This document shows positions 21,300 through 62,425 of a stretch of 64,000 bases of DNA, piece by piece (positions within the stretch are counted from its first letter, which is position 1; each line of letters opens with the position of its first letter). The position numbers were made by a program, and so were the translations under genes. The stretch covers positions 13,482,920 through 13,546,919 of the forward strand of contig JAUZTB010000071.1 of NCBI GenBank assembly GCA_034780895.1. Direction: 5' to 3'. The notes beneath the pieces are model-generated. The model saw only the letters and a list, made by a program, of their open reading frames with translations. It made no database searches and was not told the origin of the DNA. This DNA comes from Rhynchobatus australiae. Taxonomy: Eukaryota.

Positions 21300-21452
21300 A
21301 AGGAGATTGCAGATGCTGAAGTCTGGAGCAACCAGCTGCTGGAGGAACTCAGAAGTCTGAGCAGGGTCTCGATTCAAAATGTCCACGGTTCCTTTTCTCC
21401 CACAGATGCTGCTCGACCCGTTGAGTTCCTCCAGCAAATTGTGTGTTGCTTT
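21300..21452. mobile_element. Penelope-like terminal-repeat fragment, inverted pair
   Basis: tgctggaggaactca ... tgagttcctccagca inverted arms around a decayed hammerhead motif (gtctgagcagggtctcgattcaaaatgtc). Confidence 0.65.
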
Positions 21453-21992
21453 ATTGCAACAACAGGATTAAACTTTTGTTATAAAATTACTTTTCTTGAC
21501 CATGCTCTTTAACGGGCATTTAACATACAAAACTAATCCAGGGTTGATTTAAGTTCCCCTTTCTGCAAGAAAAGGCGCCCTTTCCGGTGTAGCATCCAAA
21601 TCAATAAAGAAACAAATGCCGAAATAAATACTACCTACAGGGGGCAGGTGTGAACTCAAAGTCCATCTGCCATCGTATAGGGTTGCCCTGTGGCCTGGAT
21701 GTGTTCCTCGTCTTACAAAGTGTCTCTGCAGTTCTGGCTGATAAAATTCAGCAGCGCTGCAGCTTTACATCTGCAAAGGCTCTGTGGTGAATGACCACGG
21801 TTTAGCGGCCGTCAGCTACTGGACATTGAGGAGCTGAGTCGGGTCAGAAAGCTCCTCAAACAGTGGAAGGGTGTATCACCCCAGGGAGCTACCTGAGTGG
21901 CAATGGTGCTATGTAAACGGGAGACACAGGAGAGACTACAGACGCTGGAAATCTGGAGCGAACTCAGCAGGTCAGGCTGAGTCCTTTAAGTC

Positions 21993-22553
21993 CTCGAGAT
22001 AGTGGTGGCAGATGTAAATGTTTTTAATTCAAAATTACATCTTATTCGTAATAAAAATACAAAAGAATAAACGCAGTNNNNNNNNNNNNNNNNNNNNNNN
22101 NNNNNNNNNNNNNNNNNNNNNNNNNNNNNNNNNNNNNNNNNNNNNNNNNNNNNNNNNNNNNNNNNNNNNNNNNNNNNTTGGTCAGGGCATTCAGTAGTGT
22201 GAAATCATATTTTTACATAGCATCACACAAATTGCTGGAGGAACTCAGCAGGTCAGGCTGAGACCTTTATTTTGATATTTCAGGCTGAGACCCTTCAACA
22301 GGACAAGAAACAGAAGGGTCTCGGCCCGAAACGTCGACTGTTCATTTCCCTCCATAGATGCTACCTGACCTGCTGAGTTCCTGCAGCAATTTGTGTGATG
22401 CTATGTAAAAATATGATTTCACACTACTGAATGCACTGACCAAACAACATGAAGAATGTGAAGAGCTTTGCACTGCGTTTATTTTGTATTTTTATTACGA
22501 ATAAGATGTAATTTTGAATTAAAAACATTTACATCTGCCACCACTATCTCGAG
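21993..22553. repeat. Large inverted repeat (fold-back) centred on two Penelope-like repeat halves
   Basis: 21993-22077 is the reverse complement of about 22472-22553 (one 3-nt indel). 22178-22257 is the reverse complement of 22364-22443 (2 mismatches). A gap at 22078-22177 lies inside the left arm. Confidence 0.85.
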
Positions 22554-24310
22554 CAGTCACTGTGGAGGTTCTCTGAGTCAGCCGGAGATTGGGGGTCTGA
22601 GCAGAGGAAGAGGGGCCTGTTGCTGGCTTCTTGTCCCTCCAACCCTACCACCACCCTCTTCCAGCTGCAGGACCTCGGTAGGCCCAGCAGCCAGAAAGGA
22701 ATTGGCGACGCTTGGAGTCGATACCCTGATTTTTTTTTCCCTTCTTTACTCCCAGATTACAGCATCTGCAGTCTCTTGTGTCTCTGTGCCAGAGTCCCTG
22801 TGGGAGCAGCGGCGGTCGATCCAAGAGGCAACAGAACTGGCCCAGTTTCCCAGGCCCCGATCCCCTGATGGTTTTAAAAGCAGGACAGGCGAGGGCAGCA
22901 GGTCAAACTTCCTGCCGGGGGTGGGAGAGGAAAATTCTCTGCCTGTTTGGTTGGGGGAGCAGGCGCTGCCTTGGTGTTCTATTTCCATATCTCAAACTCC
23001 TAATTCTGGGTCGTACAACGAAGGAAAACCCAGCCCCAAGCAGTGACATTCCCATGGGATGTACTACTGCTGCCTGCGTGTGGGAACCAGTCCGCCTTTG
23101 TTTCACCCCCGTCACTGGGACTACCGCAGCTACAGCTCGCACTTACAATGCGAGTTTGTTGCATCAAAGTCTCACGCCAGTCCCAAGACCAGCTTTTAGC
23201 AAAATCTTAATATTAGGAAAGATCATCAAGCAAAATTGTTACAAGGGGTAGATGTTAAGGCAATGGAAGGTAGTGTGTTAAGGGAGGGGGGAGAGGTGGT
23301 GAGTCTGCGGGTTGAGGTGAGGAAGTCCGGAGTTCAGCCACAGAACGATGCTCGGGAAAACCAGCAGAATGTAAAACTATTGCGAAGTTCTGTTCAAATC
23401 CGCCGTGTCTGCAGAAGCACAGAGTTGGGTTGGAGTGCACCGGGCGGTAATGGGATCTCAACACAACGGTGAAAGTTTTAAAACTAAACACCAGACTAGA
23501 AATGGGGAAACTAAAGTACCTTATTTCTTAAATGAAACGCCTTAAATTTTCGTCAGTGATCAAAAGCGGTATTAATTGACGGTGTCTGGTATTGTCGCGC
23601 TTGTTTCGGTTCAGTGGTGTCCCAACACTGTGAGGTATATTGTGCCATTGTTNNNNNNNNNNTGCAGCCGGGGGCACCCAGTCTCACAGGAGTTCCAGGC
23701 TTCAGCAGAATGGTTCCACTGGTTGTGGGTTTATTTTCCATTCTGCCGGGCCTCCTCGCGCTATTCACTCCACCTTCCCACAATGGAACAATTTTATACA
23801 TTATTATCCGGTAGAAAGAGTGTTGCTATGGCACGCCGCGGAAGAAATCCAGCAACTCAAAGCGGTCCAACTCTCTTTTTAACAATGATGACGGGTCACA
23901 TGCGCTTAATTGANNNNNNNNNNNNNNNNNNNNNNNNNNNNNNNNNNNNNNNNNNNNNNNNNNNNNNNNNNNNNNNNNNNNNNNNNNNNNNNNNNNNNNN
24001 NNNNNACTCTCCCTCTACCCTCTTTCACTCACACGCTCTCTCTATCTCCCTCTCTCCATTTCCAGTTGTCAGTTCTACTTTAACATTGGCAAGGAATTGC
24101 TGGGGGAAAAAAATGCATTGGTTTGTGTCCTTGGACTGCGACTGGGGTGCTGGCCTTTTGTTCAACGCTGGGGCGGCTGGAGCTGCTTCAGATTCAACGC
24201 TCACTGAATAGTTTAGTTATAACTGGTATGGCAGATTAAAATGATCCCACTCAATCACTGTTTTGTGAAGGACGACTTGGATCTGCAGTGCGTCACTGGC
24301 ACGGCTCCAC
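22550..24310. promoter_or_regulatory. CpG-enriched region, candidate RND2 promoter / first-exon region
   Basis: By eye, CpG density is several-fold above the strongly CpG-depleted background (e.g. gcggcggtcg, ctcgcg, acgccgcgg) and GC is higher. It lies about 10 kb upstream of the first visible RND2 exon and contains gaps at 23653-23662 and 23914-24005. Confidence 0.5.
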
Positions 24311-25019
24311 TTTCTTTACAAAAAGTGTTGCACGTTCCCAAATAACACCGTTACAATACTTTCAGAAATTTCTCATACATAACAGTGGAACAATTGCCAT
24401 TCCTCTTACTCCAAGGGAAATGAAAACAGTTTCATTATTGTAAAGATAAATTTCAGTGAGATGGGCTGGTTAAATGGAATAGTTTAAAATGAAGCTTGGT
24501 TCCTCATGAGGGTCAAACGATTTTACAAGGGTCAACCTGCTTGGTATAAGCCTGTTTCATTACTGAGTACAATAATTTTCCAAAAGTATGTTTTATGTAA
24601 TAAAAACAATTGGAAATACTTGTTCAGAGATTTTAAACATTTGAAGACTCAACAGGACAAATCATTGTGTGCAGTTATCCACAAGCCATACAGACTGAAG
24701 GCTTTTCAAGGAATATTTTATTTGTTGCCCAAAATCTGTGGGCCAGGATTGGGGAAATCTGCTGATGTTTGGACATGATATTTCTGAGTGGTTAGCGTAG
24801 GCCTGGCTCAGTGACTGGGTCCACAGAATGTTGATTCTGCTCCTCCTGTTTTTTTCCCCCGTTTCCCTTGATGTTATGTGGTTTAAGACCAGCAAGATAC
24901 TTGTTTTAGCATTAGTCAATGTAAGGTGGACCTGGGCAATAGCTTCCCCGGAATTAGTGTTGAATTTGCAAATCTTAACGTTTGGCTTAAGGACAATCTG
25001 AATGATGTGCTGGTTCGGA

Positions 25020-25135
25020 TCCTGATGTAGGGCCTCAACCCGAAACATCGAACACAGATGCTGTTGGACTCACTGAGTTCTTTCGGCATTCTGTTTCTTG
25101 TTCCAGGTTCCAGCACCTGAAGTCTCTTTTGTCTT
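25020..25135 (+). mobile_element. Penelope-like terminal repeat with decayed hammerhead
   Basis: cctgatgtagggcctcaacccgaaacatcga...cacagatgctg...ctgagttc...ttccagcacctgaagtctctttt. Confidence 0.65.
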
Positions 25136-26039
25136 CACAATATGCTGATTATTGTGTGATGCTTGGAGCTGCAGTGTGTGGTCTTACGTTGCATCAGGAT
25201 TCCCGTTTCTGCTATTTGCAAGTTCCCCCTTAGAAAAGGACATGGTTCCAGACATTTTAACAGGCATGCGGGAAAATTGATGATTTGTCTCAGGCCCCTT
25301 CCCCTCCATCACCCTTACTGATCTGCTAACATGCCCGCCTGCCCCATCTCCTCTCCCACCAACCTCATTCCTTTTCTCCCTCATATCTCTGCCTCTACCA
25401 CCCTCCCCCCACCTCATCAGCCATCAGATTCTGCCCTGGCCCCTGCATGTTGTCTTCGCGTGCTTTGTACAGGCACAGCACACAGAGGATAGGACTTCTC
25501 TCCAGGTGCTGTTGTGCTCAGGCAATACTGAAATTACAAGTGGCAGACCCCAAGCAAAGCAGTCACTGGGATGCCACATGGAGACTGATTAATGCATCAT
25601 TACAATGTATTTCTGGGCAACCCTTAATAAGTTCAGAGCTGGAATCTGCTGACTGATGGAATCTTTATGCTTGCACCTCAGTACTTGAAGATGAGGTGAT
25701 ATGGGTTATCCTCCATCTGTAGCATTCCAATATAAAGTGGCATCTTCAATTTTGGACAAAGAATGAAGAAAGTTTCATTATTAANNNNNNNNNNNNNNNN
25801 NNNNNNNNNNNNNNNNNNNNNNNNNNNNNNNNNNNNNNNNNNNNNNNNNNNNNNNNNNNNNNNNNNNNNNNNNNNNNNNNNNNNNNNNNNNNNNNNNNNN
25901 NNNNNNNNNNNNNNNNNNNNNNNNNNNNNNNNNNNNNNNNNNNNNNNNNNNNNNNNNNNNNNNNNNNNNNNNNNNNNNNNNNNNNNNNNNNNNNNNNNNN
26001 NNNNNNNNNNNNNNNNNNNNNNNNNNNNNNNNCTTGTTC

Positions 26040-28015: not shown

Positions 28016-28489
28016 ATCCAGTGACTATGAATGAGTGGAATTCAGTGATGATTCCTTCTGTAAAAAGATTAAGAATAGAATAAAAGCCCTGAGGCTGATA
28101 CTGCAATATGGCTACCATTAGCATCTTTCTTGATTAGCATATTATGAATATTTTAATTCATAATCTATTGAAATCTCAAATTTTATATTTACAGAATTGT
28201 GCATTTGTTTATTCATTAATGGTATAGGAAAAAATAACTCTCAGCAATACCACATTATGAATTCTTGTGTTTGCTAATTTTCTCAGTCCAGCCCTTTAAC
28301 AGAAACTTTTGTAGATCCAGTTAAGAAAGGAATATGACACAGGATTGGCACTGATGGCAGTCATTTCACTTATAGACATTTATATCATTAATTTTTTTTT
28401 GTACTTGATTGTTGTTGGAATGGTTTAGTAAAGTTTTGTTAACAGCTCTCTTTTATAATAATTAAATGTGCACATAACATCTCAAGACT

Positions 28490-28632
28490 GACATAAAAAA
28501 TTCTGCAGATGCTGGAATCTGGAGATGGAGCAATACACAAAAAGTGCGAGAGGAACTCAGCAGGTCAGGCAGCATTCGTGGAGGGAAAAAAAACAGTTGG
28601 TGTTTCTGGTCAAGACCCTTGATCAGGACCCT
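28490..28632 (-). mobile_element. Penelope-like short insertion with decayed hammerhead and TSD-like flanks
   Basis: Minus strand starts ggtcCTGATCAagggtcttgaccaGAAAcacc; flanks are tctcaagact (28480-28489) and tctcaaggct (28633-28642). Confidence 0.75.
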
Positions 28633-31359
28633 TCTCAAGGCTCTGCATTCTTCTATAAATACTGATGTTGCTCATTAAAGAAAACTTGACTTAAAAATGC
28701 CCAGAATTGGACAGCATTTCTTTATCATTGCACTCCTAACAGTCATGGAAATCTCTTGTTTTTTAAATGTATAAAATACAAACTCATCCTATATGAAATA
28801 TTTTACTGAGCTAATTAAATTAAATTTAGTTCCTCTTGCATGCTTACTGACGCAGAAGAGCAGGGTGTTTAAAGGGTTAATTGAAATTGGATCTATATTG
28901 AAGATTTTTTTTAGTTTGTAAACAACCAATGGAAATGTATTTACTGCAAAATTATTTTATTTTACCTGCCACTGTGTCAGAATTAATTCATTGTCCCAAG
29001 CATACGTATGTTTTTTCAGCTTCNNNNNNNNNNNNNNNNNNNNNNNNNNNNNNNNNNNNNNNNNNNNNNNNNNNNNNNNNNNNNNNNNNNNNNNNNNNNN
29101 NNNNNNNNNNNNNNNNNNNNNNNTCAGCTTCTCAAACAAGATTTCCTTTATTTATGTATAGTTGCCACAAATATATAGCTTAGAACTCATTAGTTTTTAA
29201 GTTTTTTGACGTGGTCCCAAGTTCTCATTCCACTGAAACTACTACAAATAGCTAATGTTGTGTTTATTGGACTAAGGTATTCTGTCTGAAGTTTTAAAAT
29301 TTATTTAAGACAAAGGCAACTTTGATCTTTGATGCAGTCATAAAATATTCTGATGTTATCTGTCTTTAAAAAGCAAATTATTGAATTTTTAAAGAATCAG
29401 TTCCTCTAAAATGTAGATTTGAAACTATAACATTTGTGTATCCAATATGTATATTTTAGCAGCTGCTGTGAAATTAATCATTGTTCTATTCCCCCCTGCA
29501 CCTGAAATCCTGGCCAATTGCCCAATGCCCTCTCACGTTAGTGTACAGACTTTGGTTATAGTGAAATTAAGTAAATGAATGATTTATGATGCCACTCTGA
29601 TTGCTCTTGCCTGATGTGTGTTCAGGCACTGCACAAACTTAGCTTTGTGTTATCACTCTCATCTTTAGCCGGATTAGTTCTAGATACCACAGTTAGGTAT
29701 TGCAATGTTTTTGCTGGATTTAGGGTTCTGTACTGAGAAACCCTGGTTTCCANNNNNNNNNNNNNNNNNNNNNNNNNNNNNNNNNNNNNNNNNNNNNNNN
29801 NNNNNNNNNNNNNNNNNNNNNNNNNNNNNNNNNNNNNNNNNNNNNNNNNNNNNNNNNNNNNNNNNNNNNNNNNNNNNNNNNNNNNNNNNNNNNNNNNNNN
29901 NNNNNNNNNNNNNNNNNNNNNNNNNNNNNNNNNNNNNNNNNNNNNNNNNNNNNNNNNNNNNNNNNNNNNNNNNNNNNNNNNNNNNNNNNNNNNNNNNNNN
30001 NNNNNNNNNNNNNNNNNNNNNNNNNNNNNNNNNNNNNNNNNNNNNNNNNNNNNNNNNNNNNNNNNNNNNNNCAAAAGCAGTCTGTTGAAACATTAACCTG
30101 GAACATTAACTATGTTCCCCTCTCCAGAGATATGGCCTGATCTGCTGACAGTTTCCAGTATTTTCTGTTTTTATCACGTATTACGAGTTTTCTCTATCCC
30201 TCCTGCAATGGAGCTGTTCAAATCATTTTCCTAAATTCAGCAATTCACCATCCATTGGATTTTTGGATTACGTGACTAGATCTAAAATCTCCTTGGATTT
30301 TGCAATCCAGCTGTACAGACAGCTCAGACAGATATATCTAAAGTTACCTAAAGATAGACAACACATGTCAAAGATGGATTTTTCTCTCTCCAGTGCTGTC
30401 TATTTAGTTGCCCAACCCCAATCTCCTATTGAATGAATCTCATAAAATATGATGTATTTTTGTACCAGAATCACTCATATGTCAGTTTACTCAGCAAAGT
30501 TGCTGTCAGAGTTAAATCCATAATAGATTTGTTTTGAGAAGATTTCCAATATCCAGTAATTCTGTGTAAATAGCAAGTTATCTAGAACTGGCCTTTTTGC
30601 TGCAGTCTTCCCTGGAGATTGTCAAAAATGACCTTGACAAAGAATAATGCAGCCTGTTTTTCACTTCCAAGTGAAAATAAATGCTTCATTTAATGGTTTC
30701 AAGGAAAGTACTCTTCATCGTGTAAGGTAATATATTGGGGGAAAAAATCGCCTTTTCTAATTTCATGAGTTTGTTAGAAAACTAGATTTTTTGGTTATCT
30801 GTTATTTGAAATTGCAAAGTTATTTTAATCCGTGGGTATTAATAGGAGAGATGGAATGTAGATTGATGGTGGGGAGGGGGCTTGATATTAAGACCAAAGG
30901 CGTCCACTCAACCGAAGCAGGATGTGACATTTTCCGAGCCACCTAGCANNNNNNNNNNNNNNNNNNNNNNNNNNNNNNNNNNNNNNNNNNNNNNNNNNNN
31001 NNNNNNNNNNNNNNNNNNNNNNNNNNNNNNNNNNNNNNNNNNNNNNNNGCATCATGTTAGCTCTGATAACATTATCTTCATCTTTTCAATATCGGCTTCA
31101 GCGTCTTTGCATTTATTTGGAGTTAGCTTTGGATCAGTGGTAGCATTCTGAGCAGCTTGATAGGCTATTTACATCATAGTACATTCATCTCCCATTCCTT
31201 AGTCTATTTGCATCCAATTCCACTGAATGCCAATTTATGAATTATATGAACTAGAGGATACCAAGGAATGATAAGGGCTCTGAACCACAGAACTGGACTC
31301 ATCATGACAAGAGAGCAGCAGTAAATGCTGTCATCTAAAGTTAATGGCTTTTCTTTTAG

Positions 31360-32140: not shown

Positions 32141-33712
32141 GGAGGGATAGACCAGATGCCTCAGGGTCAGAAAAATGTCTCCCATAAATGCCTGGCTTTA
32201 GTTTGCAATTTTTGCACAAGTCCTAAGCATGCTGGTTGTGATTTACTGCCTTACACAAAGTGACATCTGGAGTGTGATGGCCATCATGAAAATCTTCCGA
32301 TGACTGGATTGATGATGTCTTTGATTGTAGTTTGACAACCTTCAGCAATCATTTACATTGGCCAGAATCTAGTGGTGAAATGGTAGTGAAAACAAAAATG
32401 GATTTGATATAAATGGGAAACCTTTGTTAATAAACAGCTGCCCAACTAGATGTAAAAAGATGATTAGTTACAGCATCTTGTCCAAACTCTATATGCCTCA
32501 TTGTGAATTGTACAAAGCACAGTATTGGAAAGGTCTAGATGCAATATTGCAATAACCACCTCAAAAATTTGGTTGCACCTGAGGCCTCTATCACACCATT
32601 GGATAATGCACATTTTCACATTTGAATGGAGACACAAGAGACTGCAGGTGCTGGAATCTAGAGCAAAAAACAAGCAACCACTGATCCTACTCTGCCAGTG
32701 CTGGGTTTGTGGTGGGACCGGGAATGGAGGTGGGGGTGGCAAATTGGTTGGAGACTTGTAGTGTTCTTGCTGAAATGTTCTGACACTCTTCTGTGCGTGG
32801 GTAGTTGGGGTGGGGAGGGACTAGGAATACTGCAGATGTGAGGGTTAGAGGGAGGTGGGAATGAAGGTCCAGGAGATCAGCTTGGTTTGGGAGGAAAAAA
32901 AATTGGGGCTATTGCAGATCGCAGATCGGGGGCTTGTTGGAGACCAGACGGGGGTGGGGGGGGGTGGTGATGGGATATGCAATAGAATTTAATGCAGGGA
33001 AGGATCAAAGGTTTGGTCCACTTACTTGGCAGTCATTCCCATCCAGTTTTGTGCTGCAAGACCATGGTATCCCAGGGAAATCCAGTGATGGTACTTTGCA
33101 GGAAACGTGCTCAGGTTTCCCTGCACTGCTCCAAAAAGAATGATGTCAACCCATGCACTCCTGATGGAGAAATCTTGTCACCACTGGAAGGGTGACTCAC
33201 TGGTATGTGGCTGGTCGAATTCTTCAAGTGTAAAAAGCAACCTGGACTCATTCGATGTCGTGCTTCACTCATGGACAGACATTAGTTTTCCCATTAGATG
33301 ACATGTCAACAAAGGCCATCTTAGTGTTTACCAAATGCCTGTTAATGTGGGTGGCAAACTTGGAAAGTGTCATCTTGGCTGGAGATTGCTGATGGCAGAT
33401 TTTAACTACCCTTGGCATGTAAGAGGCAATATGCAGTGTTCATTTGAATTTTATTCTGGTTTTCCTAAGCTCCAAAACATTACGGTTTCCAGCAGCAATT
33501 ATTAAAATGTCTTGGCTACTGGATCGTTGGCCGTGGTGACCATGTTTAATTTTGTTTGCCTGGAATTGGATTACGTAATGCCATGTTTTCCTACACAAGA
33601 GGTTCAGTTTCATTGAAAGGTCAGGTATAAAGAAAAGATTGACATCTTTTTCTGTGTCCTTCCTGCTTCAGACATGCTGGAAATTGGAGGAGGGGAGGAG
33701 GCTGGATATAAG

Positions 33713-38141: not shown

Positions 38142-38230
38142 ATATAAATACTAGAAATCCTCAGCAGGCCAGGCTGCATCTGTGGGAAGGGAAACAGAGC
38201 TAATATTTTAGGTTGAAGACCCTTTGTCAG
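38142..38230 (-). mobile_element. Penelope-like short insertion with decayed hammerhead and TSD-like flanks
   Basis: ctcagcaggccaggctgcatctgtggg...ggttgaagaccctttgtcag; flanks are cagttcactt (38132-38141) and cagttccctt (38228-38237). Confidence 0.7.
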
Positions 38231-43844: not shown

Positions 43845-44227
43845 TTATAAACTCAGGGTAAGGGGTCAGACATTAGGACTGAGATGAAAAAATGTGAGTG
43901 AGTACAAAGGGTCCTAAAACTTTGATATAAAAACAAAAAAGCTGGTGACACAAAGGGGCAGGCAGCATTGGTAGAGAGAAAAGCAGAATTAACGTTTTGG
44001 GTCAATAACCCATCATCAGAACTGTAAATCTTTGGCATTTTCTATCAGAAGGAACTGTGGATACTCATATTCAGTATACTCAAGGCTGAGATTGGTAGGT
44101 TCAAGGAAATCAGAGGATATGAGGATCAGGTGGCAAACTGGACCTGATCATCCACGATCTTACTGAATGGTGAAGCAGACTCGCAGTGTCTTTTGGCTTT
44201 TCTTGATCATGTTCTTAACTGCTTATT
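43845..44227 (+). mobile_element. Old CR1 3' fragment, split by the insertion at 43925-44024
   Basis: taggactgagatga...caaaggg | aaatctttggcattttcta...tcaaggctgagattggtag...tgaatggtgaagcagactcg. Confidence 0.7.
43925..44024 (-). mobile_element. 100-bp Penelope-like insertion with near-intact minimal hammerhead and TSD-like flanks
   Basis: Minus strand reads cagtt CTGATGA t ggg ttattga ccc AAAA cg tt aatt; flanks are taaaactttg (43915-43924) and taaatctttg (44025-44034). Confidence 0.75.
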
Positions 44228-47354: not shown

Positions 47355-47521
47355 ACAATCAACAATCTGCTGGAGGAGCTCAGTGGCTTGAGCTGCATCA
47401 GGACTTCGACCTGCAACATCGACAATTCCTTTCCTCCCACAGATGCTGCTCGTACCTCTGAGTTCCTCCAGCAGACTGTTTGTTGCTCCAGACTCCAGCA
47501 TCTGTAGTCTCTTGTGTCTCT
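47355..47521. mobile_element. Penelope-like terminal-repeat inverted pair
   Basis: aacaatctgctggaggagctcag ... ctgagttcctccagcagactgtt, ending ccagcatctgtagtctcttgtgtctc. Confidence 0.7.
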
Positions 47522-47989
47522 ATTTTTTTAAGTCTTCATTTCTTGAAAATTCCATGGGTTAATTGGCTTGGTGTCTGTAATCCACATAAATCTGATCAGC
47601 AGTATACAAGTCCATTTTAAGAAAGTTGAAATGCAGTTCGTGTTAACTGAACCAGACAATGGAATATCTTTATCTTGTCTTGAGACTCCATATAAACACA
47701 AGCAACAGATAGGTAGTTACTGATTTAAATTATAGAATTTATTCTTCCAATTAGCAATTATGCCTCATGCTCAAAGTCAGGAGGACTGGGTCACCGAGAC
47801 TTGACCTGGAATATGTGGCTCCTTCCCAGAACATTCCCTCAAAAGAGTCATTTTCATAAAGATTGAAAATCACCAAATCCCTGTTGGAGCATTGTAACTT
47901 TTTTTGCTGTTCGTGAACAATTTGGAGATTTGTTATTTCATTGCCCTCTCAAATGGTCTGATGCACATCTTGCTTCTTTTTCCTTTCAG

Positions 47990-50568: not shown

Positions 50569-50772
50569 GGCAGTACAGTGGCTCGGCAAATAGGAGCAAC
50601 GGCCTATGTGGAGTGTTCATCTAAAGCTTCTGAGAACAGTGTCCGTGATGTATTTCATGTTACAACCCTGGCTTCTGTAAATAAGATGCAAAAAAATCTG
50701 AAACGCAGTAATTCCAAGCGGGGGTTAAAGAGGGTATCACAAATGCCTGCAAGGACAGACTTACTGGATGAG
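50569..50772 (+). CDS. RND2: RND2 last coding exon, 5' part (interrupted by the N gap at 50773-50782; CAAX and stop not visible)
   Basis: Acceptor ccctcccctttgtag|GGC. Translates [68 protein letters not shown], with the G5 motif [14 protein letters not shown] and a polybasic tail typical of Rnd proteins. Confidence 0.94.
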
Positions 50773-52334
50773 NNNNNNNNNNAGGAGCAACAGGATTGTT
50801 GCCAAGTCCAAGGTCGGTACCCAAGGCTTTTCCTGGAGCCTCGGCCTCAAAACTGGCGATTTCTGAATCCAGAGAGCTGTTGCTTATTTATGAGGCTTGC
50901 AGATTGACTGTTGCTGTGTTGGCTTCTTGTGGAAAGGAACTAATGAAGAGGAAGATTAACCAAGTGTTTGAATGTTTGTGAAGCTGTGTTGCTAAGGGAG
51001 ATGTGGGCTGTTTGTATTGAGAACTGAATTTCTACAGGGACTGTAGGCAAGATTGATGGCAGTGATAGTTTTTGTGTTGTGAAGTAAAAATGTATGACAG
51101 TCACTTTGGATATTGCCTTTTAAAACAAACTCTATATAGGACTCTAACAAATGCACACCAAATATAATATTCCCATTTTTTCATTACCTTCAGAATTTTA
51201 GCATTACATCAGTGTTTGCACTAAACTTTCATAGACTCTGATAGGGAATGTTGTACACACTTGGAACTCTTATGGATTAGGAGACATTGCATTCCTCATC
51301 CATTATAAAGAAGTTACATAAAGAACTAAAATTCCCTCTTGTCAAATTGTGCCTTCATCACCTGGTATTGGAGGATTTGCTGCTGATGCTGTTAACACAG
51401 CTACCCAGAGCTACAGAGAAATAACGCAGTGCTGGGGTTTCTACTGTTTCCTAATGTGAAGCTGAAAAGCTCTCTTATGGAAAATTAAAGTACTTAATAG
51501 GAATTCATCCTTGGTTGAATGTGCCGAAAGGATTCTGTAGTATCATCTGCGCATATGAGTTATTTCTGAAATTCAGTTCCATTGACTTAAAAGGAACTGA
51601 ATGTTGGATACTGACTCCAAAATACACACATTACATTGCCTTTTACCACATCAGTTGTTTGGTACATACAACAGAGGATGAATTTCAGCTCCATGTAAAA
51701 AAATTTTAATGTGTGTAAATTAACACTCTTTCCAAACGGAAGGAGACCAGGGCAAGTTTTCTGTGATTGCGTGTCTCACCAAAATCATTACTGGTTCAGT
51801 CAGACAACGGCTAAGGGTCAATCTTCACCTTTCACCTTGTCCTTTCTCAAAATATTCTGTTATATTCCTTACCACAGTTCAAATAGAATGAGTTTAAGTG
51901 TCCATTGATGCGTTTGCCCTTTCTACAATTCTTACAGAGACTCTCTGATACTTTGAAGCAATTAGTTGAATTCCTCTCACCATGTAGCATTTGTGAATGG
52001 CCTTTTTGAATACAGTTCTGGAAGTGTCCAATTCATCATTTGTCAGAAATGGTTAATGAACAGTTCCTAGTTAGATTCACTACATTTTTTATAACTCGCC
52101 TTAAGGTGCTTCTGTACTTTAACAACAACTGAAGGAAAAATCAAAGTTGACCTTATAGGTAATCTAAGCTTCCTGTGACAGTCAATGCTAGGTTTGTTCC
52201 ACTGGGGTGAAGTTCTGTGATCATTTTATGATGTACTTGAGCTGAGTATTGAACCACTTTGTCATTCTCCTAGGGGGCATGTAGAGAGGCTCAAATGGTT
52301 GTATCCTCTGCTGCTGTAAGTGGTTCAGCATAAA

Positions 52335-52845
52335 GGCGACAAAGTGCTGGAGATACTCAGCAGTTTGGGTACCTTCTGTGGAGTGAAAAATGCAGGGAAG
52401 GGGCAAGGGAGGAAGGTTCAAAAGAGAAGGCATGTGATAAAGTAGACAGCAAAAGTGAGATTAATGGTACAAAGTAAAAGGTGATATCGGGATGTAAAAC
52501 ACACAATGTAGTTCTAAAGGAAGTGTAGATGGAAATAGATGAATTGTATGTTTCTTTTCCCACACTTTCATGCTCACCCCCTTCCCTTCCCTCTCAGAAA
52601 CATAATAGGTTCCTTTGTCTTTCCATCCCATTGGCTTTTACATTCAGTGAATCATCCCCCACCATTCCTGCCACTCCAGTTTAGTAACATTCTCCCTTTC
52701 TTCTACCTATTGCTCAACTTTCTTTCTTCTCTTGCTTTCTCATTTTTTCTCTTGCTTTCTCATTCTCTGGATGCTGTCTGATCTGCAGAAGGTTCCCAGA
52801 ACTTCCTTCCTTTAATTTCAGGTTTCCAGCTTCTGTGGTACTTTG
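52335..52845. mobile_element. Decayed Penelope-like element: inverted terminal repeats plus an ORF remnant
   Basis: Left end gtgctggagatactcagcag; right end gatgctgtctgatctgc...ttcaggtttccagc. 52609-52680 translates VPLSFHPIGFYIQ*IIPHHSCHSS, resembling the RVPLVLTYHP...IQxII linker between the RT and GIY-YIG domains of vertebrate Penelope ORFs. Confidence 0.55.
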
Positions 52846-53055
52846 TAAGAGTTCTGACATTGGACTGAAATAGACAGCATTCCTTCAGTTTATCCCACAT
52901 TGCATTAATATTTTCCATTTTACAAGAAACTTATTATCAGTTACATGAACTTTATCATAAACCAGAATAGCATTGACCAAGGAATTGTTGCAATGTAATC
53001 GCTGGCCCTGGTTATGAGAATGTGACTTGACACAAATTCATATTCATGCATCTTC

Positions 53056-53061: not shown

Positions 53062-53944
53062 ACAACAATTGAGAATTTCTAGCATTTTCCGTCTTTGTAA
53101 CAAGTAACTGGAGTTATGAATCCTTTCATCATACTAGATGGTGCTATCTTGGACTGGGAAATGGATCCATAAGCAATTATGACCCTTGAATGCACTACCA
53201 TAAAACTAAGTCTTGGCCTGCGAACCAAGATAATGACTGCTGGTGGGTTAACTGGATATGAGAGGCTTCACAATTGCTTCTGGTTCCCACTTTCATCCAA
53301 AATTAACACTGTTGTTCTTTCCAATCCTGCTGCAAAAGAAGAAAAAGGAGGAAATACAAATGGCACCCAACCCTACTTACATGCAAGTCTACCTTTAATT
53401 CACATGACATTCAAAAGCCACTCCCANNNNNNNNNNNNNNNNNNNNNNNNNNNNNNTCATTGTTCTTTCCATGCCTGGAAGTCCCCTGTAGCACAATCCT
53501 GATTTCTCATGACACATGACAGCTCGTCAACACATACATTCCATTGTAATCACTCTTCATGAGTTTACGAAACAATCACCTGTTAGCACTTGCGTTGTAT
53601 GAGTAGACCTGCCCTGCTTTCCCACAGAATTATGCTGTTAATTGGAGTGTATTGTAAATTTAGAAAAGCTATTAAGACTGCAAGCCTTTGCAATAAGTAC
53701 AATTTGCAGGTGGGAATAAGTGTGCGTTATTATACATCTGTGCAATTTGAGTCAAACAAAGGCCATTTTAACCAGAGCAGAATTTTGGAAATGCTGCTCC
53801 CACAGTTGGACAATATGAATGGAGTTTTGCCTCTGGAGCAAGACTCGGGGTCATGGAAGAGCCAACTGAAAATCATAAGCACATTCATGCAGAACGAATT
53901 TAAGTTTCTACTATAGATAGGGACAGGGAATATTTAACCTCAAA

Positions 53945-54083
53945 CAAGAGAGACTGCAGATGCAGGAAATCTGGAGCAACGCACACAGTCCTGATGAAGG
54001 GTCTTGGCCTGAAATGCTGACCGTTCATTTCCCTCCAATAGATGCTGCCTGACCTGCTGAGTTCCTCTAGCATTTCGTGTGCG
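53945..54083 (+). mobile_element. Penelope-like short insertion with 5' inversion, hammerhead motif and perfect 10-bp TSD
   Basis: taacctcaaa at 53935-53944 and 54084-54093; inverted segment 53945-53985, then cagtc CTGATGA a ggg tcttgg cct GAAA tg ct gaccg. Confidence 0.85.
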
Positions 54084-54282
54084 TAACCTCAAATATGTCA
54101 CGGGGCCCAAACACTCAATTGCAGCTCCCATCCAGTATGACAAAATATGTTCATTAAACTTGAGCGCTTTAAAAATCATTTTCATAAATGACAAAAATCA
54201 CTCATCTTGTCCTAAGTTGTGACTTACTGATGAATGTTACCTTGACTTTGTATAATGCTGCTCTGTCAACACATGCTCTTAA

Positions 54283-60410: not shown

Positions 60411-62224
60411 CTTTTCTCAGCTCAAGTTCCTTATGAACTGGAGATTTCAACTAAGAAACCATAATGCCCCTATGGCATTTCACACATAACGTTGAAGCTG
60501 CATCGTTTGAATTTTTTTAAAACCTAACATCCAATTAGGTTTTCAGCTGTGACTTCTTGTATAATACAGATTTAGATAATAAGTTCATTTGGCTGTTACT
60601 CAGCACCATTTTGTTAATTGTAAAGTTATTTTCATTAAGATTCCTGATTTAGCAATTATAGCCATGCCATTGTGTAACATGTTGTGCAGTGAGTTAGCAC
60701 ATTAGCCATTAGCACCATAATCATTCTACAGGGTTATACTCATCTGATTCTTCTCTTGGAATTCAGATTGCCACTGGGCATGTACAGGTCCTATGCACTG
60801 ATGTCANNNNNNNNNNNNNNNNNNNNNNNNNNNCCCTAACTTTCAACAGAAACTAGAAATATGTGCCCTTTGCCTCTATTAGTAACACACATTAGTAGTA
60901 CCTACTTTGACATGAATTTATCAGACTGAAATGATAGAGTAGGGGAACTTGTCACATAATTTCATTGCCCAATTCTGTAGTGCTAGATTACCCATTTAGG
61001 TGGATCTCACTATCTAGTTTAGTCACTGGGATAAACCAATTCATAATGTAACGATGTAAAGTTCAAAGGTGAAATCCCTTGCTATGGACTGCATGTTTGT
61101 TAGCTACAGGCCTTTTATGCAAAGGGTAACTTTTCCCACAAATGCTGTAATATTTGGTTTTAAATGTAATACAACCTCCATAACTAGTGATTTGTTAGCA
61201 CTAAGAAGCTAACTATTATATTTCTGGCAGAGCCTGTAGTGCTTATCTAGTGCCTCTATGTCTTTTCAAGGCACAAGCAACAAAAGGTTAGGCAGTGGCC
61301 ATTGATAATATCCTCACTTGTTTACGTCTAACCCATGACAAAGTTTAAAACTGCTGCTGTCTATGGTTGATACTGAGCTGTGAAATCTTCCTACTTGTAC
61401 TGATGCTGACTGACAGGTTTTAACTAAGAAGAGGCTCGGGAAATCAACTGCTTTTGTATGTTGTGCTAGTTCCAAAAATAAATGTTTGCTGAAAAACAAG
61501 TGAGCTTTTCTTGTGCCAAATAAAAATGCTAAAATGATTGCTGTTGTATTTCCTGTCTCCAGGAATTATCCTCATCTTCAATATGCGTGTCTTTATGTGG
61601 TGCCTCTCCCTTACTGTTAAAATCAATGGCGAGAGAAATTGTCACATTAATCATACGAGTGTGATATAAAAAACCCTCCCCATCCCTCTGCCCAATCTCC
61701 TACCAATTTTAGCAAATACTTTTCTTGGAATGAAATCTTTAGGTCAAAAACTTTAAAAATTAATTCCACTGGTTATGTTTTACAATGTCATTGTTTCAAG
61801 TAAACTTTCATAAAATATCGTCAGACATGAAAAAGCAAATATCAGCAAGAGCATGTTTTTCAAAGTAGTCATTGAATTCTACCAAGCCTAATTTCATCAG
61901 ACAAACACAATGGTGTAGAAATCACCACCTGCTCTCTCCTCATCTTCTTTGACTCTCCAATAATGCACAGAAAGTTGACATATACCAATTTTACAATAAT
62001 TACACCATCTCCTACACTCATTCATTTGCTCCAGAACTTCAAAACTGTGACTCTTCTTTCATGTTTTCTACTGTTTCTTCCACCNNNNNNNNNNNNNNNN
62101 NNNNNNNNNNNNNAACATTTGACATCGCCTAATTGTTAGTTTCTGATTTAAACTCCCCATCCAAGCTCGATGGTCTCCTGTACCAATAGCATTTTGTTTC
62201 ATACAAACTAAACATATTGGAACT

Positions 62225-62425
62225 TTGTGGCAGGTCAGGCAGCATCTGTAGGGATAGATACAGTTAACGTTCCAGATTGATGACTTTCCTCAGGACAGAT
62301 GAAAGGTCATCAACCTGAAACATTAACTCTGTTTCTCTGTCTACAGATGCTGATTGACCTCGTGTGTTTCCAATGTTTTCTGTTTTTATTTCAGATTTCC
62401 AGCATCTGTAGGTTTTTGTTTTTGC
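62225..62425. mobile_element. Penelope-like terminal-repeat inverted pair with two decayed hammerheads
   Basis: gcaggtcaggcagcatctgtag...agttaacgttccagattgatgac | gatgaaaggtcatcaacctgaaacattaact...ctacagatgctg...tttcagatttccagcatctg. Confidence 0.7.

What the first reader, a model, noticed from the sequence alone, without database searches (positions are those of the whole stretch)
53935..54093. Dispersed short mobile family built around a minimal type-I hammerhead ribozyme
Seen: combining 53986-54000 (CAGTC CTGATGA AGG) with 22313-22340 (GAAGGG TCTCGG CCC GAAA CG TC GACTG) reconstructs a complete hammerhead. It has stem I CAGTC/GACTG, core CUGAUGA, one extra A, stem II GGG/CCC, GAAA, a palindromic ACGU in place of helix III, and a GUC cleavage triplet. 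Variants of the motif occur at about 21356, 22280(-), 22313, 25021, 28600(-), 38205(-), 43987(-), 53986, 62263(-) and 62295. Established: Penelope-like retroelements and metazoan retrozymes carry such minimal hammerheads, which cleave as dimers via the palindromic helix III. Inference: this genome holds a very abundant non-coding, ribozyme-headed element (about 10 motifs in 64 kb). No single copy here is fully intact, and several lesions look like CpG decay.
Basis: partly seen in the sequence, partly recalled or inferred. Interest (0 to 1): 0.8.

Follow-up and report, generated by a model that had tools for sequence, protein, structure and literature searches.

The report
Ribozyme-headed stubs of a Penelope retroelement
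These short repeats are pieces of a Penelope-type jumping gene that carry its small, already described hammerhead ribozyme motif, and many are likely copies of the very start of the element's capped RNA, which would put the ribozyme at the head of the transcript.

Summary
Its stems covary across distant relatives.

It is not an independent non-coding element. It is the pseudo-LTR of a Neptune-type Penelope-like retroelement (RT, Cys linker, GIY-YIG), whose minimal hammerheads, inverted ends and tails are published. This scan has noted the same kind in three other genomes.

The flagged copy is a 139-bp insertion with a 10-bp target duplication, made of an inverted tail arm plus a decayed hammerhead arm. 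Roughly 600,000 fragments exist (extrapolated); most cores are broken at CpGs.

Added here:
- Short copies start about ten-fold too often at the ribozyme's first bases.
- Those starting at A+2 carry an extra G in 46 of 78 (25% expected; neighbouring starts show no excess in free copies).
- The tail runs straight into the ORF start.

The likely reading is that transcription starts at the ribozyme, and RT started at the internal tail site runs off the cap of uncleaved RNA. Cleavage and the start site are untested.

The parts
53935..53944 (+). Left copy of the 10-bp target-site duplication (TAACCTCAAA)
   Evidence: identical to 54084-54093
53945..53987 (-). Inverted arm: pLTR positions about +87 to +134, with the long (tail) end
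53986..54083 (+). Direct arm: hammerhead (+1 to +38; CUGAUGA intact, helix III palindrome and cleavage triplet mutated) and following pLTR to about +99 (short end)
54084..54093 (+). Right copy of the target-site duplication
21303..21452 (.). Inverted pair of pLTR fragments, decayed hammerhead on +
21920..21985 (-). pLTR tail fragment
22224..22397 (.). Head-to-head pair; + arm 22313-22397 keeps the 3' half of the hammerhead, - arm 22304-22224 keeps the 5' half
22747..22787 (+). pLTR tail fragment (weak, E 0.009)
25017..25140 (+). Short hammerhead-plus-tail copy, 2 mismatches from an intact core, internal deletion
28486..28630 (-). Short hammerhead-plus-tail copy flanked by a 7-bp repeat (TCTCAAG), probable target duplication
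30094..30176 (+). Older pLTR fragment next to a run of N
32626..32673 (-). pLTR tail fragment
38146..38230 (-). Old decayed hammerhead-plus-pLTR copy
43901..44024 (-). Old-subfamily hammerhead-plus-tail copy
47358..47524 (.). Inverted pair of pLTR fragments (its hairpin gives the chance MIR2118 hit in Rfam)
52305..52395 (-). pLTR fragment without hammerhead
52759..52849 (+). pLTR fragment without hammerhead
62203..62419 (.). Head-to-head pair of an older subfamily, both arms starting at the hammerhead's 5' edge

Best explanation
The repeats are pseudo-LTR pieces of a Neptune-type Penelope-like retroelement carrying its minimal hammerhead, and the short ribozyme-headed ones are likely run-off copies of the 5' leader of the element's capped, uncleaved RNA. 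Numbering: +1 is the C of the CAGTC strand of stem I; the cleavage site is +33/+34. Shown: the element reads hammerhead, tail, ORF (RT, Cys linker, GIY-YIG), about 300 nt of pyrimidine-rich 3' UTR, hammerhead, tail. Copies end at about +100 or +140. Short copies are separate insertions with target duplications, often as head-to-head pairs with one long and one short end. Inferred: the pyrimidine tract plus an initiator-like CCAGTCC would start transcription at A+2. RT would start at the two internal tail sites, as published for the anole element. Started at the 3' pLTR it gives ordinary 5'-truncated copies with the tract. Started at the 5' pLTR it reaches the cap after 100-140 nt and copies it as an extra G, giving the stubs. 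Two such cDNAs primed from the two target ends and joined by microhomology give the hairpins. The stubs lack the tract and most lose the core by CpG decay, so they are likely dead ends. The ribozyme likely acts only in the parent RNA, where cleavage would remove a 32-nt capped leader.
For: Parent element: a GIY-YIG C-terminus lies upstream of exact-hammerhead loci. A search with it gave 53,945 first-look candidates, 150 scored. In 12 of the 21 top loci with at least 400 nt downstream, a pLTR match follows on the same strand 230-480 nt after the endonuclease. Longer relatives match GIY-YIG (6 of 6 at E<0.1, 3 above the Pfam cut-off) and RVT_1 (2 of 6, below the cut-off). Inverted 5'-truncated copies flank ORFs in L112, L121 and L129. 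The tail continues into the ORF start in 5 held loci, and an ATG at about +56 opens about 190 codons in L533. 5' ends: 63 of 168 unbiased fragments start at +1 to +5. Of 89 starting at +1 to +14, 24 have a tract, 29 an inverted arm and 36 neither. Among 8,758 young copies about 2,800 end at -2 to +4 (about 400 per nt) against at most about 36 per nt at -3 to -100 (hand estimate). Extra G: 46 of 78 tract-less copies starting at A+2 (25% expected, p=3e-10). This was 25 of 42 in subfamily A, 21 of 36 in B, and 23 of 42 in copies with no inverted arm (p=5e-5). Controls: free copies starting at +3, 5 of 16 (30% expected); at +1 or before, 5 of 13 purines (39% expected). Tract-bearing copies with a changed +1 show T30 A7 G4. 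An extra G marks capped full-length L1 insertions (PMC11702581, passage). Target duplications of 7 nt or more in 28 of 68 free copies against 3.9% of shuffled pairs. 3' ends are bimodal, and 33 of 36 classifiable inverted pairs have one long and one short end (p=1e-7).
Against: No RNA 5' end was seen. Three RNA-seq runs of an organism not known to be this species show the family in 0.1-0.2% of reads on both strands, with no pile-up of starts or ends; such libraries do not map caps. Apparent starts spread over +1 to +5, and +3 (about 880) outnumbers +2 (about 590). In subfamily A the G excess among free copies alone is modest (11 of 23, p=0.017). Part of the pile-up in old copies may be diverged tracts (threshold 68-70% pyrimidine). 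An extra G could also be untemplated addition at an uncapped end. In D. virilis Penelope the start lies about 120 nt upstream of the ribozyme with an intron between (PMC2377424 and PMC4209133, passages), so this layout is not general. 6 of 48 inverted arms begin exactly at +34, which fits stem I microhomology but equally fits cleaved RNA as a template. No intact full-length copy was found.
Confidence: 0.62

Rival explanations
1. Same parent element, but the stubs are simply extreme 5' truncations of cDNA started in the 3' pLTR. RT stalls or switches template at the ribozyme's structure or at the start of the pyrimidine tract, with no RNA end involved.
For: 5' truncation is the rule for Penelope-like elements (PMC8557442, passages). 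Two thirds of young copies do run into the tract. Starts are spread over several bases. Three earlier scan notes read similar stubs this way.
Against: It does not explain a G that is specific to the +2 boundary in two subfamilies. In 6 of 7 G copies with a recognisable target duplication the G is not part of the target (one or two of these duplications are doubtful). RT has already passed the structured part when it reaches +2.
Confidence: 0.25
2. The pyrimidine tract plus CAG is a 3' splice site, as at the 5' end of helix I in D. virilis Penelope. Stubs are copies of spliced RNA, and the G is the end of an upstream exon.
For: Pyrimidine tract plus CAG precedes stem I in all subfamilies seen. 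The D. virilis intron ends at helix I (PMC4209133, sections read).
Against: No shared upstream sequence in G copies (positions -6 to -1 are mixed). The marine relatives whose hammerhead follows the endonuclease have no AG at this place. No spliced joint at this site appears among the joints listed (100 and 125 further joints were not shown).
Confidence: 0.07
3. The short copies form a self-propagating non-autonomous family (retrozyme-like or MITE-like) that is transcribed, cleaved as dimers, circularised and reinserted by the parent's RT.
For: Very high copy number, own target duplications, one 76-nt head-to-tail hammerhead tandem (L087/L088), and animal retrozymes derive from pLTRs (bioRxiv 10.64898/2026.07.22.740005).
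Against: Inverted junctions differ from copy to copy (other-arm starts from 1 to 106). Tandems are rare. Free copies do not start or end at the cleavage site (3 of 168 starts at +31 to +35). The youngest exact cores nearly all sit behind the parent's tract. Only 1 of 168 unbiased fragments has an intact core.
Confidence: 0.06

Closest known systems
Minimal hammerheads (min-HHR) in pLTRs of metazoan Penelope-like elements (Cervera and De la Pena 2014, PMC4209133; introduction, results and discussion read)
   Same: Core CUGANGA and GAAA, an extra base before stem II, G10.1-C11.1, 4-5 bp helix I, palindromic 15.2-16.2, located in pLTRs, mostly as dispersed single motifs from truncated copies; reported for fish Xena, Poseidon and Neptune.
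   Different: Copy load here is far higher (3,153 intact cores, about 6e5 fragments extrapolated, against about 4,000 and 9,000 motifs in coelacanth and Xenopus). The sections read do not name cartilaginous fish (supplements not read). They do not place the transcription start at the ribozyme.
Neptune-clade Penelope-like elements (Craig et al. 2021, PMC8557442, passages; Arkhipova et al. 2013, PMC3846280, passages)
   Same: RT, Cys-x4-Cys-x2-Cys linker and C-terminal GIY-YIG; DKG motif; 5' truncation; adjacent inverted copy; 30-40 bp tail at one end; pLTR overlapping the first codons of the ORF; initiator-like motif in the pLTR (rotifer).
   Different: No reference-based tree was made, so Neptune is assigned from the linker and the host group. 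The extra-G signature and the long/short asymmetry counts are not in the passages read.
Poseidon element of Anolis (PAc) in vitro (Frangieh et al. 2024, PMC11167929; main text read)
   Same: Two internal RT start sites about 100-140 nt after the ribozyme that define the tail; both target strands nicked and extended; uncleaved RNA as the main template.
   Different: Different clade. Its ORF starts inside the ribozyme, whereas here the ATG is at about +56. That paper did not map the RNA 5' end in the text read.
Metazoan non-LTR retrozymes (PMC7229834, passages; bioRxiv 10.64898/2026.07.22.740005, abstract to discussion read)
   Same: Type I hammerhead, non-coding short units, pLTR ancestry.
   Different: Retrozymes are head-to-tail tandems of 150-450 nt, mostly with canonical hammerheads, and yield circular RNA. 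These copies are dispersed singles or head-to-head pairs attached to a coding parent.

Membership tests
Minimal type I hammerhead | Conserved core CUGANGA / GAAA / UH with G10.1-C11.1 | tested here: met
   3,153 genome copies, control 3; invariant core in 16 aligned sequences
Minimal type I hammerhead | Stems I and II supported by covariation | tested here: met
   15 distinct sequences (3 from this genome, the rest chosen from 30 marine hits): 94% paired, 42 double changes against 13 shuffled, 0 of 500. The marine hits were picked by a descriptor needing 3-bp stems, so pairing is partly by construction. Within the genome, pairs 5:34 and 14:25 covary (p=0.008, 0.015; 59 copies).
Minimal type I hammerhead | Palindromic helix III remnant | tested here: met
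   ACGT is the commonest form; ACAT and ATGT are its CpG decay products; CG or TG/CA in marine relatives
Minimal type I hammerhead | Self-cleavage as dimer or with protein help | not testable with these tools
   Needs an in vitro assay
Endonuclease-bearing Penelope-like element | Single ORF with RT and C-terminal GIY-YIG | tested here: met
   seen across decayed natural copies, no intact full-length copy found
Endonuclease-bearing Penelope-like element | pLTR with hammerhead flanking the ORF, direct and inverted | tested here: met
   3' of the ORF, 5' of the ORF, inverted
Endonuclease-bearing Penelope-like element | Optional 30-40 bp tail at one end | tested here: met
   3' ends of 170 copies: 64 at 96-111 and 65 at 136-143; 33 of 36 pairs discordant
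Neptune clade | CX2-5CxxC linker between RT and endonuclease | tested here: met
   the linker is shared with Nematis
Neptune clade | Placement in an RT phylogeny with reference elements | not tested
Non-LTR retrozyme | Head-to-tail tandem units each with a hammerhead | tested here: not met
   3 of 60 loci have a second same-strand core, two of them one 76-nt tandem; none in the window
Non-LTR retrozyme | No coding parent sequence in cis | tested here: not met
   The same pLTR is contiguous with the ORF
Non-LTR retrozyme | Circular RNA intermediates | not testable with these tools
   Needs northern blot or divergent RT-PCR

The most novel reading that the evidence does not exclude
In this vertebrate Neptune element the capped transcript begins at the second base of the hammerhead. 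Hundreds of thousands of genomic stubs are run-off cDNAs of that uncleaved leader, complete with a copied cap G, and paired by twin priming at the two tail start sites. The genome would thus record where a Penelope RNA starts and that the ribozyme is a decapping switch at the head of the mRNA rather than a unit-length processor.
Probability: 0.55. Interest if true: 0.6.

Novelty: new member of a known kind. Interest (0 to 1): 0.35.

Why it matters
The ribozyme, the host element and the hairpin layout are all published, so the catch itself is ordinary. What could matter is the boundary signature. The role of the hammerhead in endonuclease-bearing Penelope elements is stated as unclear (PMC8557442), and the steps that give inverted pLTRs are unresolved (PMC3846280, PMC11167929).

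A start site at the ribozyme's first bases would explain why a lone full-length copy lacks its promoter and needs an upstream pLTR, and why ribozyme-headed stubs are so abundant. It makes cleavage a cap-removing step that can be tested directly. The G-at-boundary count is cheap to repeat in any genome with these elements. The family also makes up about one fragment per 4 kb of this genome.

Tried and rejected
- Rfam scan of the window: no hammerhead model matched; 5 chance hits.
- Pfam on the 204-aa endonuclease piece itself: nothing; family calls came from longer relatives.
- No remnant of the element's ORF in the window (best tblastn E 0.37).
- Search for starts at the cleavage site among unbiased fragments: none beyond background.
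- Sequencing-run search: no RNA holder listed on record. Laid RNA runs showed no start or end pile-up, which says nothing about caps.
- Folding: the intact 38-mer folds into stems I and II plus an inactive pairing over the core (z -1.6, not significant). Two-copy folding preferred a duplex through the near-palindromic stem II, and my hand-drawn dimer structure was not validated, so it is uninformative.
- A recalled link to a named ancient vertebrate repeat was not confirmed: the name gave 0 papers, and the Repbase review passages shown list only UCON13 as the human Penelope trace.
- Searches for a prior report on sharks or rays, or of a start site at the ribozyme, found none. Subscription papers, Repbase and Dfam were not searchable, and supplements of the cited papers were not read.
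- A downstream promoter element match at the expected spacing was looked for by eye and not found.

Full report
Numbering used throughout: +1 is the C of CAGTC (5' strand of stem I); the predicted cleavage site is between +33 and +34.

1. Observation. The quoted bases are in place, and all ten listed motifs lie in fragments of one family. A profile trained only on copies from elsewhere found 16 fragments in the window, covering 9 of the 10 positions, and none in the reversed control. The window has no intact core, and Rfam has no model that catches it. The flagged stretch is a 139-bp insertion (53945-54083) between two copies of a 10-bp target duplication. It consists of an inverted arm carrying the long tail end and a direct arm from +1 to about +99.

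2. Abundance and decay. In 552,326 unmasked bases taken without regard to the family (the window, 200 kb beside it, and 40 evenly spaced 10-kb stretches) there are 168 fragments, control 0. The 40 stretches alone hold 85 in 316,941 bases, 0.27 per kb, which extrapolates to about 6e5 in the genome (masked stretches excluded). One intact core lies in that sample. In 172 of 190 young copies in register, the eight CpG positions differ in 23-42% of copies and the other positions in 1-10%, apart from one subfamily variant. Three of the four CpGs sit on essential places: stem II base and G12, the helix III palindrome, and the cleavage site. At least two young subfamilies (A with a GUC site, B with GUU) and older ones exist.

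3. The parent. Loci with the exact hammerhead nearly all carry a pyrimidine-rich tract upstream, and several reach a GIY-YIG-type endonuclease C-terminus ending about 330 nt before it. That 204-aa piece gave no Pfam hit itself but has 53,945 first-look candidates in the genome (150 scored). Its best database relatives are from rays (68-73% identity) and whale shark (59%), so the host is likely a cartilaginous fish. Longer relatives match GIY-YIG and, below cut-off, RVT_1. Of 21 top loci with at least 400 nt downstream, 12 show the pLTR 230-480 nt after the endonuclease; several of the rest are masked there. RT motifs, the DKG motif and a Cys-x4-Cys-x2-Cys linker are present, which with the host group points to Neptune (PMC8557442, passages; no tree made). 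Inverted 5'-truncated copies flank ORFs in L112, L121 and L129. Walking 5' along natural copies showed the tail running straight into the ORF's start in five held loci. In L533 an ATG at about +56 opens about 190 codons, and the copy begins inside the hammerhead, with an inverted arm and no tract. The hammerhead therefore lies both behind the ORF and at its head, as a pLTR does.

4. Is it a real hammerhead fold? Among 80 marine metagenome relatives, 19 of 45 with enough downstream DNA have a minimal hammerhead 85-154 nt after the endonuclease, with no hit in 276,306 reversed bases. Aligning 13 of the 30 marine hits with 3 copies from this genome gives an invariant core and 42 double changes against 13 in shuffles (0 of 500). 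Selection by a stem-requiring descriptor inflates pairing, but not the invariance of the core or the position behind the ORF. Cleavage was not testable. The literature reports weak activity for such motifs and no monomer cleavage (PMC4209133), or activity only with the protein (PMC11167929).

5. How the short copies arise. They are true insertions: 28 of 68 free copies share a flanking word of 7 nt or more, against 3.9% of shuffled pairs. Their 3' ends fall at about +100 or +140, the published tail signature. In head-to-head pairs one arm is long and the other short in 33 of 36 classifiable cases out of 48 (p=1e-7 against 50%), and junctions vary from copy to copy. This fits two cDNAs primed from the two nicked target strands at the two internal start sites and joined by microhomology (inference from PMC11167929).

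5' ends crowd at the ribozyme's edge: 63 of 168 unbiased starts at +1 to +5 and 3 at +31 to +35; of 89 starting at +1 to +14, 65 lack the tract. Exact counts by the letter before the core (5,576, 300, 965, 1,023 and 894), each sampled at 30-70 loci, give about 400 ends per nt at -2 to +4 against at most about 36 per nt upstream (hand estimate).

Tract-less copies that begin at A+2 are preceded by G in 46 of 78 (25% expected from flanks), in both subfamilies, and in 23 of 42 when copies with inverted arms are left out. Free copies beginning one base later or earlier show no excess, and tract-bearing copies mutate C+1 mostly to T. For this count I examined the first 70 of 965 subfamily A matches and the first 50 of 451 subfamily B matches in genome order; 41 tract-bearing and 1 masked row were set aside. 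No shared upstream sequence accompanies the G. An extra G is the mark of a copied cap in full-length L1 insertions (PMC11702581, passage), and CCAGTCC / TCAGTCC fits the initiator consensus YYANWYY (consensus recalled) with A+2 as start.

The likely model is a capped RNA that starts at stem I and is copied uncleaved. RT started at the 5' tail runs off the cap and yields the stubs; started at the 3' tail it yields tract-bearing truncated copies.

6. Against this reading. No RNA end was observed. RNA-seq of a possibly different species shows the family in 0.1-0.2% of reads on both strands without pile-ups, as expected for passengers in host transcripts. Apparent starts at +3 outnumber +2. The G excess in free subfamily A copies alone is modest (11 of 23). 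Six of 48 inverted arms start exactly at the cleavage site, which fits either stem I microhomology or cleaved templates. D. virilis Penelope starts well upstream of its ribozyme (PMC2377424, passages).

7. Comparison and verdict. It works like, and is by the tests above, the pLTR of an endonuclease-bearing Penelope-like element with a minimal hammerhead (confidence about 0.95 for this identity). It fails the retrozyme tests. Three earlier notes of this scan describe the same kind in other genomes; they are unchecked and agree in kind. My searches found no report of a start site or cap signature at a Penelope hammerhead, within a library that lacks most subscription papers. Verdict: new member of a known kind, interest 0.35; the cap-at-ribozyme reading has probability about 0.55 and would merit about 0.6.

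Noticed in passing
window 50569-50772 (+): Coding exon of an Rnd-family Rho GTPase (best match Rnd3/RhoE, E 3e-11), probably the last one; the flagged insertion lies about 3 kb downstream.
   Followed up: partly
window 21993-22553: The hairpin at 22178-22443 includes about 45 bp of host-like flank in both arms, and 21993-22077 is repeated inverted at 22472-22553 (96%) beside a 100-N gap. Either an assembly artefact at a hairpin or a fold-back that took flank DNA along.
   Followed up: no
L087 1425-1610 (G000:C1:2828230): A 76-nt head-to-tail repeat, about 2.5 units, each with an intact subfamily B hammerhead, next to an inverted RT fragment: a retrozyme-like minisatellite in the making.
   Followed up: no
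G000:C1:86596057 (+) and 86596330 (-): An inverted pair of a third intact hammerhead variant with a different stem II, 273 bp apart; possibly another Penelope family.
   Followed up: no
L535, L533, L127: ORF fragments are joined directly to a hammerhead starting at about +1/+2 (with the extra G in L535), as if RT jumped from the RNA 5' end into the ORF.
   Followed up: partly
L007 1509-1574: In subfamily A the ATG inside the CUGAUGA core opens a short upstream frame of about 21 codons ahead of the main ORF; subfamily B has no ATG there. Read by eye from the sequence.
   Followed up: no
L447 121-164: A marine relative has a hammerhead with a longer stem II about 900 nt upstream of its RT match, possibly its 5' pLTR.
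   Followed up: no
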